Part shown: piece by piece, positions 37,200 through 46,727 of the stretch
How positions within the stretch are numbered: position 1 is the stretch's first letter
Layout: each line of letters opens with the position of its first letter
DNA from: the human T2T-CHM13v2.0 reference genome, Homo sapiens
Assembly: GCF_009914755.1 (NCBI RefSeq)
Contig: NC_060931.1
Strand: one strand, 5' to 3'
DNA length: 64,000 nt
Made by a program: the position numbers and the translations under genes
Notes under the pieces: model-generated
Databases searched by the model: none
Seen by the model: the letters and a program-made list of their open reading frames with translations, nothing else
What the model was told of the DNA's origin: nothing

Positions 37200-37950
37200 G
37201 TGAATGGGGACGTGGCGGCCACACGGCCGCGCCCACGCCACCCGCAGTACGGGGCTGGGGCTGGGGCTGGAGCCCGCCGTCCCAACAATCCCGGGGACGA
37301 GAGTTGGGCGGGAATCCGCTCCACGCAACTCGGCGCGGTCCCGGGGACGTGGCGCTTTCCAGCCAATCCCGGCTATGCGATTGTTAGACCAATGGCTACT
37401 CGGGGACGCTATGCGACAGCGGCGGGTTTGCTGATGATTGGTCGGGAGGCCGCCGGCGAGGCGGATGAGGGCGGGGTGCGGACCCGCTTCCGGTTGGGCG
37501 GTGCTTGCGCGCGTGAGCTGAGCCGGTGGGTGAGCGGCGGCCACGGCATCCTGTGCTGTGGGGGCTACGAGGAAAGGTAAGTACGGTGATGCCCAGCCCC
37601 TTCACCACTGCCTCATCTTTATTCGCTTTCTTTCTGTCCCCGGTCTTGTTCTTGGCGCGGCAGGGGACTGCCTCACTCGGTGCCGCTGTCTCTGCTGGCG
37701 CCCGGGTCCCAGGCCTGATGCTGCTGGAGATCCCGGGACCCTCTGTGTGCAGCCTGGGATGGAGGCCGCCGCCCGTCTTACCGCGCGCTCTGGGAAGGGG
37801 GCTGGTCCGGTGGAACTCTGTCCCGTTGGGTACTGTTCTGTGCCTGGTTTGCTGCGTCCTGGTCCTCCATCTCTAGGTCACGCCACTCACCGAGTCTCTG
37901 GCACCAGAGGGTCATTTTTTGCCTCCGGAAGGTCGGAGGGCATTTGGATA
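37200..37950 (+). promoter_or_regulatory. CALU: CALU CpG-island promoter (TATA-less; CCAAT 37363, 37389, ATTGG 37437; GC boxes; ETS cttccgg 37487)
   Basis: Dense CpG; motifs read directly. Confidence 0.88.
37490..37576 (+). other. CALU: CALU non-coding exon 1 (start approximate)
   Basis: Consensus donor AAG|gtaagt at 37576/37577 within the CpG island. Confidence 0.8.
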
Positions 37951-40900
37951 GTGTTATTGTAAGAGTTCCTTGCCGCCTCCACTCACCATCCTGCTTGTAT
38001 CTGCCAGCTCCGCCCCAAGGCCACATCCCGACAGTAGGGTGCATCTGCCAAGGTCGTGTTCACTCACCTAAAGGGTGCAGAAACAAGGGGGGAGAGAACG
38101 AGTGACGACACTAGGTGATATCTATGATTTTAAAGAAAAGCTGAATGTTTAGAGCTTCCATATTTGGCTACGTACTTCAGTTAGCGACGGAAAATAGTTT
38201 TTAAAGCTTTATTGGGGAATTAATTTTTGTTACGTTTTTTGTTGCTTCTAGCCCCATATCCTACTGATTTTTAGCATGCTGCGGTCAGAAATAAACTTAA
38301 TTCCCTATAGCTGCCGCGATTAAGCGTAGAGTGGCTTGCAGTTTCAAAAGCTGCTTTTGCATCAAGGCCCAAGCTCCGTGGGTCTCCTGCTAAAACTTTT
38401 GAGCCTGTGATCTGAATTCCTAAGTGTATAAAATTCTAGAATAGTGTCTTCGAGAATTGAGTTGCGTTCATTTTCTGGTGTGGACCATGAAGTCAACGTT
38501 AATGAATTGGGAATAAGGTGGCTTCTAGTTGTTTTTTGTTCTAGTAGCTTATTCAGCTTGGAGGCAGAGAACCTTGGAATCTCTGTTAAATTAGTCTGCC
38601 ATAGAATGGAACTTGACACAAGACAAATGCAAGTTTGACCTCACTCAGTAGATTTAATTAACCAAATACCAAACGACAGTAATCACTGAAGAATTTATAT
38701 AGTATAATCCAAATGAGGGACCAGATATAACCTCTAAGTTGTATTTGTCAAGAAAATGAGTTTGCCAAGACCTAATCTGAGGTTTTACTGTGATTGGGGG
38801 GTGGGGGGGTTCCAATAGGATTCTTTTGAGAATCACAAGTAGGAAAGCCATGAGCTCACAAAAATGTATTGAGTATGCCTGAGTGAATAGTACTCAATAT
38901 AGCTTTGAAACCAACTCATTGTCACTCTCAATGTAATCATTGTTTGTTTTCATTCATCCAGTGATGTGTCAAGAAGTACTTATTGATAGCACTTAATATC
39001 CATTAGAGCAGTATTGGGATCTATATATTGGTGTTATTTTTTAAAATTTATTTATTTTAGAGTTGAGGGTCTCAGTATGTTGACCAGGTGGAGCCTTGAA
39101 CTCCCATGCTCAAGCAGTCCTCCTGCCTCAGCCTCCCAAGTAGCTGAGACTAGAGGTATATAACACCACACCCTAGTACATTGGTGTTAACACAGATTTT
39201 CTGTAACGTAGGTATACCAGGGATATTGAAAGGACAGAGGTGTAGCCAAGGATAGCCACTGGAAATGCTAGCTAGGCCACAAGGCCCTAGATTCTCACTC
39301 TCTGAACTCTTAAGTATGGATGTTGCTGATGCAGTAATTTATGTATTAGAGTTAAGACAGCTGAAATAACACTTTTGCCTGTTCCTGGCTGATTGCCAGA
39401 TCCAGTAAACGGAATTGGAAGTTGGAGAACACAGGCAGGCAGGAACCACATTGCTGCCAAGTACCGCCCAATTAATTCAGTAAGATGTATTAATCCAGTA
39501 AAATGTATTGGTATCAAAAAAGTGCAAGACAATGTATTAGGGACAATATAGGGGTAATAATTTGTATTAGAATGATATGTAGACATTCTTCCAGAAATGT
39601 CGATTCTAAAGGGGAGCTAAGGAGACAACTTAAGGTAACCTATGGTCATTGTTTTTGAGTGGTTCAGACGAGTTTTATAGAAGTTTAGATTGGATCATAC
39701 CCTTTTTGTCCAAAAAGAGAAAAAGATAACAGATCACTTCCAGCTAGAGTGATCATAGTAGGTAGGTCTTCTAGGATCTTAAATTTATTTATAGACATCT
39801 GGCACTGAAGGAAGTTTGAGCTAAAATAACTACCAAATTCTCAACAGTGTCACGCATGTTACACATGCACAGCAAAATTACAACTAGAAACCAAGGCTCC
39901 TATCCATACATTTCAAATAGCATTTCTCTCACAATTGATTATGTATTAAGGCTTGTCAACGAAAAGGAAACTTTTTTCTCTCAGAATTTCTAGAACTTTT
40001 TTCTTTAAAAAGTTTTTTATTCTGTAGCCAGAAAAATTTAAAGTTTGTGCTGGGTTGCTTTGGTTATAGAACTAATGAAGCTTGAGTAATAGTTTCAGAC
40101 ATTCTCAGGGTTTTTCTTCTGCAGCCAGATTTTACACTTCTATTATCTCAGCTGTCTTATAAATGTATTCCCTCCATCACACAATATAATTAGAATGTAT
40201 TGATGAACAGATGTAACTTCATCACTAGAGAGACGTTAAATAAATTATGTGTTGGTATCATGACTTTTATCAAATCATGAAGGATGCCATCACTTTTATG
40301 TGATAGTCCATTGGTATAGTACTAAAGTTTGTAAGTAAAGAATGTCAGATAGATAACAAGATAACTTCATTTTCGAGATCTCATAACCTGGGCCTTAGTA
40401 TAGTTAAATTGCTATCAGTCTGTTCCCTGTAATCTCCAATTGAAGTAGACAGTTAAACAATGAGATCCTGCTTTTGCTGCGTTATGGAGAAATAAATGCC
40501 TTTTCTGGTGAATATCCATCCAGCTCAGAGAACTGGAATTTTACTACCACACCCATTTCTCCCAATTGTTAACATTGAGCAATGGGTCTTTGGTCAACCA
40601 GAATAACTGTTGGATCACTCAGTGTTAACGTTCTTGTGAAGTTGAATTTAAACATCTAAATTTCCCTGAAACAATTTAAGTATTCTGTGACCAATGGCAC
40701 TTTACCAAAATTGAAAGTTTGGGCCATGTATTGCTCGCAATACTGGTCCAATGGATACACTATGGACACTAAGGACAAAAACTTCCTTGAAAGCTCTAAG
40801 TTCTTACCTGAAGGGTGGGGTAGGGAGAAGTGATAAGAATTTAGAGCTTTTAAGGACATTTTTGGATGGATCGAAGAAACCAATTCTTAAGACTCATTAT

Positions 40901-41064
40901 TATTAAAATCACACTTAACCCAGTTAGGCTTTTCTCTTTATAAATTACTGGAACGATTCATGAAAACAACTTTATAGAAGACCATTATTGGTGACATACT
41001 AATACTACAAAAGGATGATAGCTACTGGATATATTTTCTGTTCTAATCTTTTGGTTTGTGTCTA

Positions 41065-41293
41065 ACATGCTGTCCAATAAAAATATAATACAAGCCACAT
41101 ATGTAATTTTAAATTTTCAGGTGAAAATCTAAAACAGGTGAAAGTAATTTTAATAATGTTTAATCTAATACATATAAAATACCATTCTTTCAATATGAAA
41201 TGTAACACTTATACCAATCGCAATTCACACTAGCCACATTTCAAGTGCTTAGTAGTCACATGTGGCTAGTGGCTACTGTACTGGGCAGTACAG
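41065..41293. mobile_element. MER33/MER3-type hAT-Charlie element
   Basis: gctgtccaata...tagccacatttcaagtgctt...tggctagtggctac. Confidence 0.8.
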
Positions 41294-41663
41294 GCCTAGA
41301 TTTTTTTTTTTTCCCAAGAAAAAAATATTAGATGTTACCCTTCGTGGAAGAGGGACAGAATTTTAGAGAGAGAAACTCATTTGAGAAATGGGAGGTGGGG
41401 AAATTCAGTTTTCACAACCATTGGTTTACTTTCTAGATCACATGATAAAAGCTCATACAGCTAAGTCTTTTGTTTATGTGTATCATATTTTTCCTAATAT
41501 TATGTTGTCCATTATGTCCATAGTATATCCATTGGACCAGTATTGTGATCAGTATGTATGGCCCAATGGATACACAAAGATCTTTCCAGCTGGAAGTGAT
41601 CTGTACCTATTCCTCTAAACTTTTTTTTTACTTTTTGGACAAAAGTATCCAATTTAAACTTTT

Positions 41664-41947
41664 TTTTTTCTTTTTCTTTTTTTGAGACAGGGTCTTGTTC
41701 CCTCACCAAGGCTGGAGTGTGGTGGCATGATCATGACTCACTGTAACCTCGTGTCTCCGGGGCTCAGGCGATCCTCCCACTTCAGCTTCCCCGGTAGCTG
41801 GGACTATAGCTGCGCCACCACACCCAGCTAATTTTTTGTATTTTTGGTGGAGATGGGATTGCCTAGGCTGGTCTTGAACACCAGCATTCCATCCGCCTTG
41901 GCCCTCCAAAGTGCTGGGATTACAGGCTTGAGCCACTGCTGCTGGCC
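41664..41947 (-). mobile_element. Alu (J-like)
   Basis: Diverged antisense Alu; TSD caatttaaactttt (41650) / cagtctaaactttt (41948). Confidence 0.9.
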
Positions 41948-42024
41948 CAGTCTAAACTTTTATAAAGTGTTGAAGTGGGTGAGGAAAATGAGAAGGGCCA
42001 TTAACTTTGTATCATTTGGTTTCA

Positions 42025-42402
<378 letters not shown>

Positions 42403-43481
42403 TTATTTTTTACTGTTCCTTTCACATCTTCCCACGTAAGATATCCTTTGTCTTAGATGTCCTTTGTTTCTGCTTGAACATACATGCTCCATACCAAAAA
42501 CCATATGGTTTTAGATAAATCTAGTACAGTTTTTGGTATGGATGGTGTTTTTTGTTTTTAGTGTCTATATTCATAAAACAAGAGGGCTTTGTTAAAGTTT
42601 CTAATAGCCAGGAGTTGTTATATATGTGGGCACAAAGGACGTTTTGTTTTTTTTTAAGTAGAACTTCTTTAAAGTGCAGATTTTTCATTCCTCCCTGCAG
42701 AAAGATAAAGAAGTAAAGATGGACCATTGGCTTTGTCCATCTGGGTCCTTGATGACCGTTGTAGGCAGTTTCATCAATAGTAAGGAAGCCAGGTTTCAGG
42801 GTAGCATTGGACAGTGAGGAAGCAGAGGCAGCAGGGTAGAAACTGTGGGTGAGGGAAAGGGAGGAGCAAGCATGAAGGAACAGCACAGTCTGGGAAAGAC
42901 TGTGGGTAGTGGAGACCTGAGAAGCACTGATTGACAGAATGGAGGAGCCTGTTTAAGGGATGAGATTGAAAGTTTATTCAGGAGAGGGGAAGGAAGGAGA
43001 AATGGGTGAGTGATAAAGCTAAATCACTTGGCTTCTACTCTTTGGAATTCTGGTATCCTTGTATCAAGATATTAAGCCTGAAACATAAATGTAGTTTTCC
43101 CTCTAAATCACAGAGTAAACCAATCTATTACATTTCTGTATGCTACATGTCTCAAAACTTGGTACAGTATCCTTTCCAGGACCAGATTATGTTAGAGTGC
43201 ATAAGTATTTATTCATATTGTAATATTTGGGGTTGGCAAGAATTGTTAGGGTATTATGCTATATTTTATTTTGAGAATGTAATCATTTGTAAAATTTTCC
43301 TAAAGATAAAGTCCCCTTAGGCATAAGGAAAATCCTTTGTTGCAGTGACTCTTGATTTTACTTGATTCTGCAAGCCTCTGTCACTATACATATTGTTGGG
43401 ATATATCCCAAAACATCAACAACATATAATTCTGTTTTTTGTTTCCAAAGTTTTGTTTATCTAAAGAATTATTTGTTTATA

Positions 43482-43755
43482 GGCTGGGTATGGTGGCTTA
43501 CGACTGTAATCCCAGCACTTTGGGAGGCCAGGGCTGGAGGATCGCTTGAGACCAGTCTGGGCAACATAGTGAGACTCTACAACATTTTTTTTTTTTTAAT
43601 TTGCTGTGCATGGTGGTACACACTTGTATTCCCAGCTACTTGGGAGGCTGAAGTGGGAGGATGGTCTGAGCCCCAGAGGACCAGACTGCAGTGAGCTATC
43701 ATCACACCACTATATCTAGCCTGGGTGACAGAGTAAGACCCTGTCTCAAAAAAAG
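43482..43755 (+). mobile_element. Alu (J-like)
   Basis: TSD aaagaatt(a/g)ttt. Confidence 0.88.
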
Positions 43756-44296
43756 AATTGTTTATAGTTTGAGATAGAAGTTTCATTTTGCCCTGAAGTA
43801 AAGGCATACTCACTTTAATGTTGTATTTATAGAGCCGCTAAATCTCGGATTTTCTGTTTACTCTTTAACTGATTTGATTGATCAGTTGAATTATTGGAGG
43901 GTCAGCCAGAGTGTTGTTCACCCAGAGCAATATTTTACAAGTGGTGCACACAGAAAGCTAATAAACATGAGAGTGTGCTGTTCATACAAATTAGACAGTA
44001 CAGCAGGATACAGTATTAAAGTTCACTTTCACACCAATCTTACCAGCCCACCCCATTCCTGTCTCTTCTCCCATGAACCTTGAGGTTACCACTGTTTACA
44101 CATGGGTATTTGTCTTTGCACACCATTTATGTGCATGTTATATTTTATACAAATAAAAACAAGCTGGGGAGATTGTTTAATTTTGTTTTGCTTTTTATGT
44201 AAATGAGATCTTGACGTTGTTTTGAACCTTGCTTTTTTTGTTCACTTGACATATCTTGGTGAATTTTCCATTTCACTGCAGATAGATGCATCTCGT

Positions 44297-45211
<915 letters not shown>

Positions 45212-46498
45212 CATTCTTTTTAACCTTTGTGTATTTTTCCATAATCGAGATTTAATATATTTTACCAATTCTCTGTTTTTATTTGTTTTCCGATTTTTTA
45301 ATCATTGTGAACTGTCATCATTGAACATCTTAATACAAGTATCTTTGTCTGTAAATGTGGGTATTTTGATGGGATTGAATGAAACAATGTTGAGAAACAT
45401 AGCCAAGTTCTAACATTGATAGGAATAGAGTAATAAGTACCATCTTCTACCCATTTCTCTATGGGTTTCATGGTCTTGCTTTCACATTGCTTCTTCTGAT
45501 GGATTTTCCTAAGTCTTAACCTTCACGTCATCAGTAACAGTACCTTATTTGAGACTGGGGCACTTGGGAATGACTGCCCCCCAACCCCCGCCCCCATTAT
45601 CTCCTTAGGTACTTTTCTGTTTGTCTTACTGTGTTGTCGTATTTACTCTAGAACACTTTCCACTCTCTACTGATATGTCCTCCTCTGCCATTTCAGGACC
45701 TCCCACCCTCCCCCACTGAGCTGCCTTCCCAGTGATGAAAGAAAAAATGTAAAAGCCTGAAAACCCTTCTTCTTGATTTTTAATTTTTTTTTTTCCCTCT
45801 AAGACCTTAACCACTCTGGATAGTATCACGGGGTATCAGTAGAGTGTGCTAAACAGATGTGTACTCTGCAGCTTCTTTGCAGGTTTTTTGTCACATTTTT
45901 CAGTCAAGTGTTCCAGCTTTGTGCTTGTTCATTAGAGTCACCTGTGACTACAGAGATTCTGAAAGTTTGAATCAGGGCCTGGGAATCTGTACTTTGAACA
46001 GTACTACAGGTGGTATTTATGCCTAGGCAAGTATGGGAAACAACTGTGCAGAAGGATAAAGACGTTCTTATCTATGACTAGACCATCTGAATGATTTGGC
46101 CTTTGAAGGTGACTCAAGGTTGAGCCTGGATGTTGGAGACTTGGTGCTATAGACCAAGGAAGCTGCCAAGTATTTCGCTGGTTCCTAATCTCATGAACAT
46201 CAGAATCACCTGAAAAACATTTAAAGCTACGAATGTCTGAATTCAGCTTCAGAGACTCTAAATCAATAGGAGAAACTTAAAGCTTCCTAGATGATTCTAA
46301 TAACCAGCCATGTTTGAAGACCAGACCACCAATGCGTACAAGAAGTAAAGGATTTGGAGTCAACATTTAAACCTTGGTTCTTTCACTTTTAATTCTTATG
46401 AACTTGGGCAAAAGGATTAAAATTCTACTTTGGTATCTTTTGAAAGAAAACAGAAAGTGGACATTTTAACTATAAGTTTCTTATCAGCCTACAATCAG

Positions 46499-46511
46499 AT
46501 GAAGGAAACTG
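46499..46511 (+). CDS. CALU: CALU optional microexon, coding part (MKET + G; gives [14 protein letters not shown]-extension)
   Basis: ATG AAG GAA ACT G|gtaaaa joins in frame to the exon at 46717; acceptors ttatcag| (46488) or aatcag| (46499). Confidence 0.65.
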
Positions 46512-46727
46512 GTAAAAATTTCTCACTGTAATAATTGAAGAGTCTGATATTCCACCATACTTATTTTATGGATGAAGTAATATTTGGGATAATATAAAAG
46601 ACTTGCATAGATATGTATATCAAATTAATAGTTTAACTCGGATGTGAGCTTTTAATTTCTTATTTAGTTATTAAGCATACTGCCTCCTGAATTAACTGCT
46701 TTTCATTTTCTTCAAGATCTAATTATC

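What the first reader, a model, noticed from the sequence alone, without database searches (positions are those of the whole stretch)
41650..41975. An old AluJ splits one arm of the long helix, dating the pairing before the insertion
Seen: the Alu TSD copies are caatttaaactttt (41650) and cagtctaaactttt (41948). Removing the Alu rebuilds atccaatctaaacttttataaag, which pairs over all 23 nt (two G-U) with ttttatagaagtttagattggat (39673-39695). Looser pairing continues outward (atggtc / ggccat, taaggt / actttg). Each TSD copy has drifted from the partner arm by one change that still allows a G-U pair. Established: AluJ is the oldest Alu lineage. Inference: the complementarity is ancient yet still has perfect 14-20-bp blocks, which favours selection over a neutral inverted duplication.
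Basis: partly seen in the sequence, partly recalled or inferred. Interest (0 to 1): 0.7.

Follow-up and report, generated by a model that had tools for sequence, protein, structure and literature searches.

The report
Old intronic inverted repeat clipped by Alu
Two stretches of the first intron of the human calumenin gene are reverse copies of each other and one was hit near its end by an ancient Alu, but nothing so far shows that the pairing is kept by selection, so it looks like an ordinary old inverted duplication.

Summary
The sequence facts hold. An antisense Alu (41664-41947) sits between 14-nt target-site duplications at 41650 and 41948. The empty site pairs over 23 nt (21 Watson-Crick, 2 G-U) with 39673-39695.

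The inverted repeat is larger than reported. Block A is 39674-39759 against 41574-41663 plus 41962-41966. Block X is 40719-40778 against 41505-41566. Both blocks are found only at this locus in the human genome.

The Alu landed about 20 nt from the outer end of the right arm, so it clips the helix rather than bisecting it. Beyond the duplication only 5 nt still match, and the "looser pairing outward" is at chance level.

The selection argument is unproven:
- Perfect 14-20-bp blocks are what 89% identity gives.
- Both duplication changes being G-U compatible has a chance of about 0.11.
- G-U versus A-C mismatches are 7:3, which is not significant.
- Six indels put bulges in the helix.

The arms carry 5.7% substitutions per lineage against 10-13% for the Alu (P 0.0009-0.08).

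The indel count fits full neutral age. Early gene conversion or chance can explain the substitution deficit.

Orthologues could not be obtained, so the decisive test remains open.

The parts
39674..39759 (.). Left arm, block A of the inverted repeat.
   Evidence: It aligns as reverse complement with 41574-41663 plus 41962-41966. 72 of 80 aligned columns are identical, and 21 gap columns fall in 5 indels.
40719..40778 (.). Block X, the inner left block of the inverted repeat, 960 nt downstream of block A.
   Evidence: It aligns as reverse complement with 41505-41566. 52 of 60 columns are identical, with 1 indel. The genome search recovers the pair.
41505..41566 (.). Block X', the partner of X. 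It lies 7 nt from A'.
   Evidence: A 30-mer pattern with up to 3 mismatches finds only X and X' in the whole genome.
41574..41663 (.). Right arm A', the part inside the Alu. Its last 14 nt (41650-41663) are target-site duplication copy 1.
   Evidence: In the minimum-free-energy fold of 39560-42420 it forms 64 pairs with A.
41664..41947 (-). Old Alu (J-like). The T-rich run at 41664-41685 is its A-tail read on the + strand. The body is 41686-41947.
   Evidence: It aligns with 31 other Alus. It differs at 54 of 260 positions (20.8%) from their consensus. Its conservative private divergence is 40 of 260 (15.4%), or 29 of 223 (13.0%) at non-CpG sites. There is a weak 7SL match, RF00017, at 41682-41828 on the - strand (23 bits, below gathering).
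41948..41961 (.). Target-site duplication copy 2.
   Evidence: 12 of 14 identical to copy 1.
41962..41966 (.). The outermost 5 nt of the right arm (ATAAA), now cut off by the Alu.
   Evidence: It matches the left arm at 39674-39678. The chance of such a match at a fixed place is 0.004. There is no significant similarity further out.
42061..42365 (+). Second Alu, in the opposite orientation to the first and about 110 nt away.
   Evidence: Two RF00017 matches on the + strand (51.3 and 46.7 bits). It forms 218 predicted pairs with the first Alu in the fold of 39560-42420. The cofold energy is -308 kcal/mol.
41067..41312 (.). Multi-copy interspersed repeat inserted in the spacer between X and X'. 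It is not part of the inverted repeat.
   Evidence: 1093 first-look candidates, of which 40 were scored. These gave 53 matches, most of them 76-92% identical and on many chromosomes.

Best explanation
This is the remnant of an old local inverted duplication (a palindrome with a spacer) inside CALU intron 1. It is not maintained for RNA pairing.

Two blocks survive. On the left, A and X are separated by 960 nt of unique sequence. On the right, X' and A' are contiguous. The simplest account is that the arms were once at least 1.1 kb long and the right copy later lost its middle. That step is inferred.

An old, J-like Alu then retrotransposed into the right arm about 20 nt from its outer end. The site looks like a typical L1 endonuclease site, and the insertion duplicated 14 nt. 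It removed only the last few pairs of the potential helix.

Both arms lie in one intron on the transcribed strand. The pre-mRNA is therefore predicted to form two imperfect long-range helices as a by-product (A:A' 64 bp, X:X' 57 bp). Next to them sits a much stronger helix between the two opposed Alus.

The arms show roughly half the substitutions that the Alu clock predicts. I attribute this to arm-to-arm gene conversion while the arms were long and nearly identical, to sampling error in about 140 columns, and to looking only at what is still alignable.
For: Architecture and significance are shown.

The repeat is specific to this locus:
- The genome search over the whole human assembly with 39600-39800, 41440-41662, 40640-40900 and 39760-40720 finds only the local copies.
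- The X 30-mer with up to 3 mismatches finds 2 of 2 local copies and nothing else; the control finds 0.
- The two-block A pattern finds the two local copies only.
- A 26-mer pattern with up to 3 mismatches finds 8 other places. None has extended similarity beyond the motif; scores are 14-24 against a shuffle maximum of 17.

Order of events: the left arm is continuous across the empty site.

There is nothing RNA-specific in the pattern of change:
- G-U versus A-C mismatches are 7 to 3, P=0.17.
- 6 of the 16 substitutions are transversions that break pairs.
- 6 indels totalling 23 nt put bulges in the helices.

The indel count fits full neutral age. P(>=6)=0.14 at 3.5 expected events. At half that age it is 0.009 (the indel rate of 0.012 per site per lineage is my assumption from recalled primate ratios).

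Perfect runs are as expected for this identity. Outward pairing is at chance. Rfam finds nothing but Alu/7SL-related matches and one sub-threshold hairpin hit (9 matches at E<=1).
Against: The arms are less diverged than strict neutrality predicts for anything older than this Alu.
- Arms: 16 differences in 140 columns. The pairwise value is 11.4% (95% CI 6.7-17.9%), or 5.7% per lineage.
- Target Alu, private divergence: 13.0% at non-CpG sites (29 of 223) and 10.8% at A/T sites (10 of 93).
- Six Alus of similar age, A/T sites: 10.1% (68 of 675).
- One-sided Fisher P is 0.0036, 0.082, 0.018 and 0.0009 for the four comparisons.
- Simulations that include the local-alignment step give P=0.0017-0.0067 at Alu-clock rates and 0.027-0.035 at rates 25% lower.

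Gene conversion is invoked, not shown. Today's blocks (60-95 nt, 87-90% identical) are short for conversion in mammals.

No cross-species data could be obtained, so constraint is not excluded.
Confidence: 0.7

Rival explanations
1. A selected long-range RNA helix. On this view the two blocks are kept complementary because the CALU pre-mRNA needs the bridge. It could loop out about 2.3 kb of intron 1, or serve as a dock for double-strand-binding proteins. The Alu was tolerated because it removed only the terminal pairs.
For: Substitution density in the arms is about half the Alu clock. The predicted fold of the present 2.86-kb stretch still pairs A with A' (64 bp) and X with X' (57 bp). The duplex energy is about 10 standard deviations below shuffles. 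G-U outnumbers A-C by 7 to 3. The Alu insertion cost only about 7 pairs.
Against: The 7:3 ratio is not significant (P=0.17). Six indels totalling 23 nt and 6 transversions interrupt the helices. The indel count is at or above full neutral expectation, which is opposite to what selection on a helix predicts. Perfect blocks, G-U duplication changes and outward pairing carry no weight. No exon or annotated element lies in or next to the loop, according to the hub's gene table. The neighbouring Alu pair offers a far stronger helix. Any inverted repeat would fold like this.
Confidence: 0.1
2. Each arm is constrained as DNA, independently of pairing. An example would be a duplicated regulatory element. 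Both arms keep AGCTGGAAGTGATCTGT, which contains a GGAAGTG core resembling an ETS-type site (a label from recall, not tested).
For: Low substitution density in both blocks. The longest identical run in A covers that motif.
Against: RefSeq lists no functional element here, according to the hub's table. No motif scan was run. The indels argue against tight constraint. The same data fit chance or gene conversion.
Confidence: 0.05
3. The inverted repeat is younger than the Alu. On this view a later inverted duplication copied X'-A' up to the edge of the Alu tail, and the 5-nt match beyond the duplication is a coincidence. The low arm divergence then needs no special explanation.
For: The arm ends within 5 nt of the insertion site. 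Per-lineage arm divergence (5.7%) is below that of this Alu.
Against: The left arm matches the empty site, not the Alu tail. The chance of the 5-nt match is 0.004. Six indels are too many for half the age (P=0.009-0.02). The palindrome's centre lies between X and X', not at the Alu edge, so a fold-back at the Alu does not give this layout (inference).
Confidence: 0.04
4. The arms are the terminal inverted repeats of a very old, low-copy DNA transposon.
For: The layout is long inverted ends around about 1.8 kb. Short motifs recur in the interior: ATGTATT occurs 8 times on one strand, and there are X-like pieces at 38996-39028 and 42549-42569.
Against: No other copy was found in the genome. No duplication is visible at the outer ends by direct reading. 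None of the 8 ORFs scanned (the longer ones among 20) matches Pfam. Ends of a transposon older than the Alu should be more diverged, not less. The searches would still miss a family of fewer than about 100-200 copies at 70% identity or lower (my estimate).
Confidence: 0.07

Closest known systems
Pairs of conserved complementary regions (PCCRs), long-range intronic RNA structures. Source: Kalmykova et al. 2021, PMC8052449. I saw the search listing with the start of the abstract, and a supplement search only.
   Same: Two complementary stretches lie in one intron, about 1.8-2.3 kb apart, with a stable predicted duplex.
   Different: PCCRs are defined by evolutionary conservation of both sides, which could not be tested here. 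CALU does not occur in the 5 supplementary files held for that paper. The full catalogue is not in those files. The arms here are plainly homologous copies, that is an inverted duplication, and not independently evolved complements.
Inverted Alu pairs in introns, the commonest source of long double-stranded RNA in human transcripts. Source: preprint 10.1101/2024.12.07.627371, listing and start of abstract only. The rest is from recall.
   Same: Opposed copies of one sequence lie in one intron and fold by default. One such pair (41664-41947 on the - strand and 42061-42365 on the + strand) lies right at the finding.
   Different: The A/A' and X/X' arms are unique sequence, not a dispersed repeat. 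They are shorter and weaker: the cofold gain is about -41 kcal/mol, against about -110 for the Alu pair.
Genomic palindromes or inverted duplications whose arms stay alike through gene conversion (from recall, for example sex-chromosome palindromes).
   Same: Inverted arms around a spacer, with arm-to-arm identity higher than their age predicts.
   Different: Those arms are kilobases to megabases long and over 99% identical. Here 60-95-nt blocks are 87-90% identical, and conversion is only inferred.

Membership tests
Alu SINE insertion by L1-type retrotransposition | A 7SL-derived dimeric body of about 280 nt with an A-rich tail. | tested here: met
   It aligns over 260 positions with the consensus of 31 Alus. 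There is a weak RF00017 match at 41682-41828 on the - strand (23 bits, below gathering). The T-rich run at 41664-41685 was read directly.
Alu SINE insertion by L1-type retrotransposition | Target-site duplication of 7-20 nt directly flanking the body and the tail. | tested here: met
   A 14-nt duplication, 12 of 14 identical, with anchored-match shuffle P=0.007. The site reads TTAT|AAAA in Alu orientation, close to the TT|AAAA preference (the preference is recalled; the sequence is).
AluJ subfamily | Subfamily-diagnostic positions of the reference AluJ consensus. | not testable with these tools
   No reference library was available. Indirect evidence only: the Alu shares the state of the 10 most diverged Alus at 14 of 35 distinguishing columns. 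That includes all 7 non-CpG-type columns I picked out (108, 186, 212, 217, 228, 259, 309).
AluJ subfamily | Divergence from the source sequence of about 14-18% (recalled range). | tested here: met
   Conservative private divergence is 40 of 260, or 15.4%.
Conserved long-range RNA structure (PCCR type) | Stable complementarity between two intronic regions less than 10 kb apart. | tested here: met
   Cofold energy -84.9 against -44.6 +/- 3.9 kcal/mol for shuffles. The fold of 39560-42420 pairs A with A' (64 bp) and X with X' (57 bp).
Conserved long-range RNA structure (PCCR type) | Both sides conserved across species, with compensatory substitutions. | not testable with these tools
   No non-human genome was available. 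One scan of prokaryote genome contigs gave only a 23-nt chance match.
Conserved long-range RNA structure (PCCR type) | Changes biased towards those that keep pairing, such as G-U, and few indels. | tested here: inconclusive
   G-U to A-C is 7:3, P=0.17. There are 6 transversions and 6 indels.
DNA transposon with terminal inverted repeats | Further copies in the genome. | tested here: not met
   Only the local copies were found. The 8 motif hits show no extended similarity. Sensitivity is limited for very old, low-copy families.
DNA transposon with terminal inverted repeats | Transposase remnant, or a target-site duplication outside the ends. | tested here: not met
   None of 8 scanned ORFs (of 20 ORFs of at least 45 aa) matches Pfam at E<=1. 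The flanks cagacgag and gtgttgaa are unlike each other (read).

The most novel reading that the evidence does not exclude
A two-part long-range RNA bridge in CALU intron 1 (A:A' about 64 bp plus X:X' about 57 bp, closing loops of 0.7 and 2.3 kb). On this reading purifying selection has held it since before the AluJ burst. The Alu was tolerated only because it clipped the last few pairs. The halved substitution density of the arms would be the footprint of that constraint.
Probability: 0.1. Interest if true: 0.5.

Novelty: new member of a known kind. Interest (0 to 1): 0.25.

Why it matters
If the arms proved conserved and compensated across mammals, this would be a datable example of a long-range intronic RNA structure that survived a transposon hit. 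It would also give a handle on how CALU's 9-kb first intron is processed.

As it stands, the value is methodological. A transposon inside one arm of an inverted repeat gives a minimum age and a built-in neutral clock. Here that clock shows a two-fold substitution deficit, but it cannot tell selection from gene conversion or chance without other species.

Tried and rejected
I then listed stop-to-stop ORFs (20 of at least 45 aa). I scanned 8 of them and got 0 matches. The other 12 were not scanned.
- Rfam at E<=1 over 38500-43000 gave 9 matches. Eight lie in the two Alus (7SL and Alu-derived miRNA families, all below gathering). One is a sub-threshold plant miRNA model on the local hairpin at 40776-40864.
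- The window file carries no soft-masking, so NCBI's repeat calls for this stretch could not be read.
- I looked for an outward extension of the arms and rejected it. An earlier lenient alignment that seemed to extend the arms to 39579/42066 was an artefact of cheap gaps.
- I looked for a repeat family behind the arms and found none.
- One scan of prokaryote genome contigs, in case of host contamination, returned one MAG contig with a 23-nt chance match.
- Four literature searches found nothing on this locus. The terms were calumenin/intron 1/inverted repeat; CALU/A-to-I/intronic/dsRNA; conserved complementary regions/long-range RNA structure/CALU; and CALU/RNA editing/editing sites. Most 'CALU' hits were the Calu-3 cell line.
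- As a like-for-like control I read target-site duplications of other old Alus. They were recognisable (P<0.05) in 4 of 10. With the target, the recognisable ones differ at about 6 of 67 positions by my reading, which allows one indel. This shows how strongly recognisability biases such comparisons. It is too small and too biased to serve as a clock.

Full report
**What is there.**

The window is T2T-CHM13 chr7:130,014,001-130,078,000. The finding lies in CALU intron 1 (37577-46716, + strand, from the hub's table).

- TTTTATAGAAGTTTAGATTGGAT lies at 39673-39695.
- On the right, an Alu in antisense orientation begins with its tail, read as a T-rich run at 41664-41685.
- The Alu ends with the complement of its 5' end at 41947.
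- It is flanked by caatttaaactttt (41650-41663) and cagtctaaactttt (41948-41961).

The two flanking copies are 12 of 14 identical. The anchored match beats 298 of 300 shuffles (P=0.007).

In Alu orientation the site reads TTAT|AAAA. That is close to the L1 endonuclease preference, which I recall rather than tested.

The rebuilt empty site takes one base from each duplication copy. It matches the reverse complement of the left arm at 21 of 23 positions. Both differences give G-U in the + strand RNA.

**The repeat is larger than reported and ends sooner than reported.**

Alignment with the Alu sliced out gives block A. This is 39674-39759 against 41574-41663 plus 41962-41966. It has 72 of 80 aligned columns identical, 8 mismatches, and 21 gap columns in 5 indels.

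A second block is X, 40719-40778, against X', 41505-41566. It has 52 of 60 columns identical, 8 mismatches and one 2-nt indel.

X' lies 7 nt from A'. X lies 960 nt from A. The layout is therefore A ... X | spacer | X' A', a palindrome with its centre near 41.1 kb.

The spacer holds a later insertion of a multi-copy repeat at 41067-41312.

Outward of 39674/41966 there is no similarity beyond chance (P=0.49-0.95 against 1000 shuffles under three scoring schemes). An early lenient alignment of mine that seemed to extend the arms was a gap-penalty artefact.

The Alu therefore sits about 20 nt from the outer end of the arm. The only sequence beyond the duplication that still matches is ATAAA.

**Origin.**

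The arms are not a recognisable dispersed repeat.
- Whole-genome DNA searches with four stretches return only the local copies.
- A 30-mer from X with up to 3 mismatches finds just X and X'.
- A two-block pattern from A finds just A and A'.
- A 26-mer pattern with up to 3 mismatches finds 8 other places against 1 for the reversed control. None shows similarity beyond the motif.
- No transposase remnant was seen in 8 of 20 ORFs scanned.
- The flanks show no outer target-site duplication.

These searches would miss a very old family of low copy number. A local inverted duplication is the simplest origin.

I infer that the arms were once at least 1.1 kb long and that the right copy later lost its middle. 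A 960-nt deletion is more ordinary than a 960-nt insertion of unique sequence.

**Age of the Alu and order of events.**

I aligned the Alu body with 31 full-length Alus, 21 from the window and 10 from fetched loci.

| Measure | Result |
|---|---|
| Difference from their consensus | 54 of 260 (20.8%) |
| Old-group state at distinguishing columns | 14 of 35 |
| Old-group state at the non-CpG-type columns I picked out | 7 of 7 |
| Mismatches to both the overall and the old-group consensus | 40 of 260 (15.4%) |
| The same at non-CpG sites | 29 of 223 (13.0%) |
| The same at A/T sites | 10 of 93 (10.8%) |
| The same at G/C non-CpG sites | 19 of 130 (14.6%) |

The 'old group' is the 10 most diverged Alus. 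This fits AluJ, whose age of roughly 55-65 million years is recalled. No reference consensus was available to confirm the label.

The repeat predates the Alu on two grounds. The left arm runs without a gap across the empty site. It also matches 5 of 5 bases beyond the duplication (chance 0.004). The evidence is thin but fairly strong.

If the repeat is older than the Alu, each arm has had at least the Alu's time to change.

| Sequence | Per-lineage divergence |
|---|---|
| Arms (16 differences in 140 columns; pairwise 11.4%, CI 6.7-17.9%) | 5.7% |
| Target Alu, A/T sites and non-CpG sites | 10.8-13.0% |
| Six Alus of similar age, A/T sites | 10.1% |

- One-sided Fisher tests give P=0.0036, 0.082, 0.018 and 0.0009, depending on the comparator.
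- Binomial tests against an expected pairwise 16-23% give P=0.083 to 0.0004.
- Simulations that evolve the arms at Alu-clock rates and then apply my local aligner give P=0.0017-0.0067.
- At rates 25% lower the simulations give P=0.027-0.035. The data fit about 5-6% per lineage.

So the arms carry roughly half the expected substitutions.

**Why I still do not read it as a selected helix.**

1. The deficit is not specific to RNA pairing.
   - Among 10 transitions, 7 give G-U and 3 give A-C (P=0.17).
   - Six further differences are transversions that break pairs.
2. There are 6 indels totalling 23 nt.
   - At an assumed 0.012 events per site per lineage, 3.5 are expected for full neutral age (P of 6 or more = 0.14).
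   - At half that age 1.75 are expected (P=0.009).
   - Indels disrupt a helix more than substitutions do, yet they are not depleted.
   - T-runs in the arm may inflate slippage, so this point is softer than the numbers suggest.
3. Perfect runs of 14-20 follow from the identity. The mean longest run is 23.5 for 8 mismatches in 80 columns, 16.6 with the indel breaks, and 17.3 for X.
4. Both duplication changes being G-U compatible has a chance of about 0.11. Only one duplication copy can be in the helix at a time.
5. The comparison rests on about 140 columns chosen because they still align, in a repeat noticed because it is conspicuous.
   - Among 10 other old Alus, target-site duplications were recognisable in only 4.
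   - Together with the target, those differ at about 6 of 67 positions by my reading.
   - This shows how recognisability alone pulls such figures down.
6. Gene conversion between arms that began long and identical would delay divergence without any function.

**What the RNA would do.**

With the Alu removed, the arms cofold at -84.9 kcal/mol. Shuffles give -44.6 +/- 3.9.

In the minimum-free-energy fold of the present 2,861-nt stretch 39560-42420:
- A pairs with the inner part of A' (64 pairs).
- X pairs with X' (57 pairs).
- The Alu pairs with the opposed Alu at 42061-42365 (218 pairs).
- The outer 6-7 nt of the left arm fold locally instead.

Any inverted repeat would behave this way. The Alu pair is the far stronger duplex, with a cofold energy of -308 kcal/mol. 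No exon or annotated element lies in the loops.

**Verdict and odds.**

| Reading | Odds |
|---|---|
| Unselected old inverted duplication, neutral decay possibly slowed by early gene conversion | about 0.7 |
| Selected RNA helix | about 0.1 |
| Sequence-level constraint on each arm | about 0.05 |
| Repeat younger than the Alu | about 0.04 |
| Ends of an ancient low-copy transposon (a claim about origin only) | about 0.07 |

**What could not be done.**

No non-human genome was available. One scan of prokaryote genome contigs, made in case of host contamination, gave a 23-nt chance match.

Four literature searches found nothing on this locus. CALU does not occur in the 5 supplementary files held for the PCCR catalogue paper. 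The full catalogue is not among them and may bear on the claim.

Noticed in passing
window 41664-41947 (- strand) and 42061-42365 (+ strand): Two opposed Alus lie about 110 nt apart. They are predicted to form 218 pairs (cofold -308 kcal/mol), by far the strongest double-stranded RNA candidate in this part of the intron. Closely spaced inverted Alus are also said to be unstable as DNA (recalled).
   Followed up: partly
window 39341-40726: The 7-mer ATGTATT occurs 8 times on the + strand and never on the - strand within 39300-40800. Shuffles give a mean of 0.31, and the highest count of any 7-mer in 300 shuffles was 6. One copy lies inside block X. Unexplained.
   Followed up: partly
window 41067-41312: A multi-copy interspersed repeat sits in the spacer of the inverted repeat. 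It gave 1093 first-look candidates, and the scored copies are 76-92% identical. In locus L011 two matches lie in opposite orientation about 340 nt apart, as in a small element with inverted ends. The family was not named here.
   Followed up: no
window 38996-39028 and 42549-42569: Further short X-like pieces. The first is 84% identical to X' over 31 nt, as a direct repeat. The second shows an 86% complementary match to X over 21 nt. The X motif therefore occurs at least four times within 3.6 kb, and the X 30-mer was found nowhere else.
   Followed up: partly
window 40776-40864, 42477-42553, 39961-40022: Three local palindromes or hairpins of 60-90 nt. The first has 31-nt arms that are 87% complementary, and it abuts block X. 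Rfam gives only a sub-threshold plant miRNA match for it.
   Followed up: no
loci L024 and L025 (G000 C7:135.84 and 135.87 Mb): Two loci 37 kb apart carry the same old Alu with similar flanks, so they look like copies of one segmental duplication.
   Followed up: no
window 41781-41830, 42120-42180, 42262-42337: Sub-threshold Rfam matches to mir-1268, mir-1285, mir-3135 and mir-1304 all fall inside the two Alus. This is as expected for Alu-derived miRNA families.
   Followed up: no
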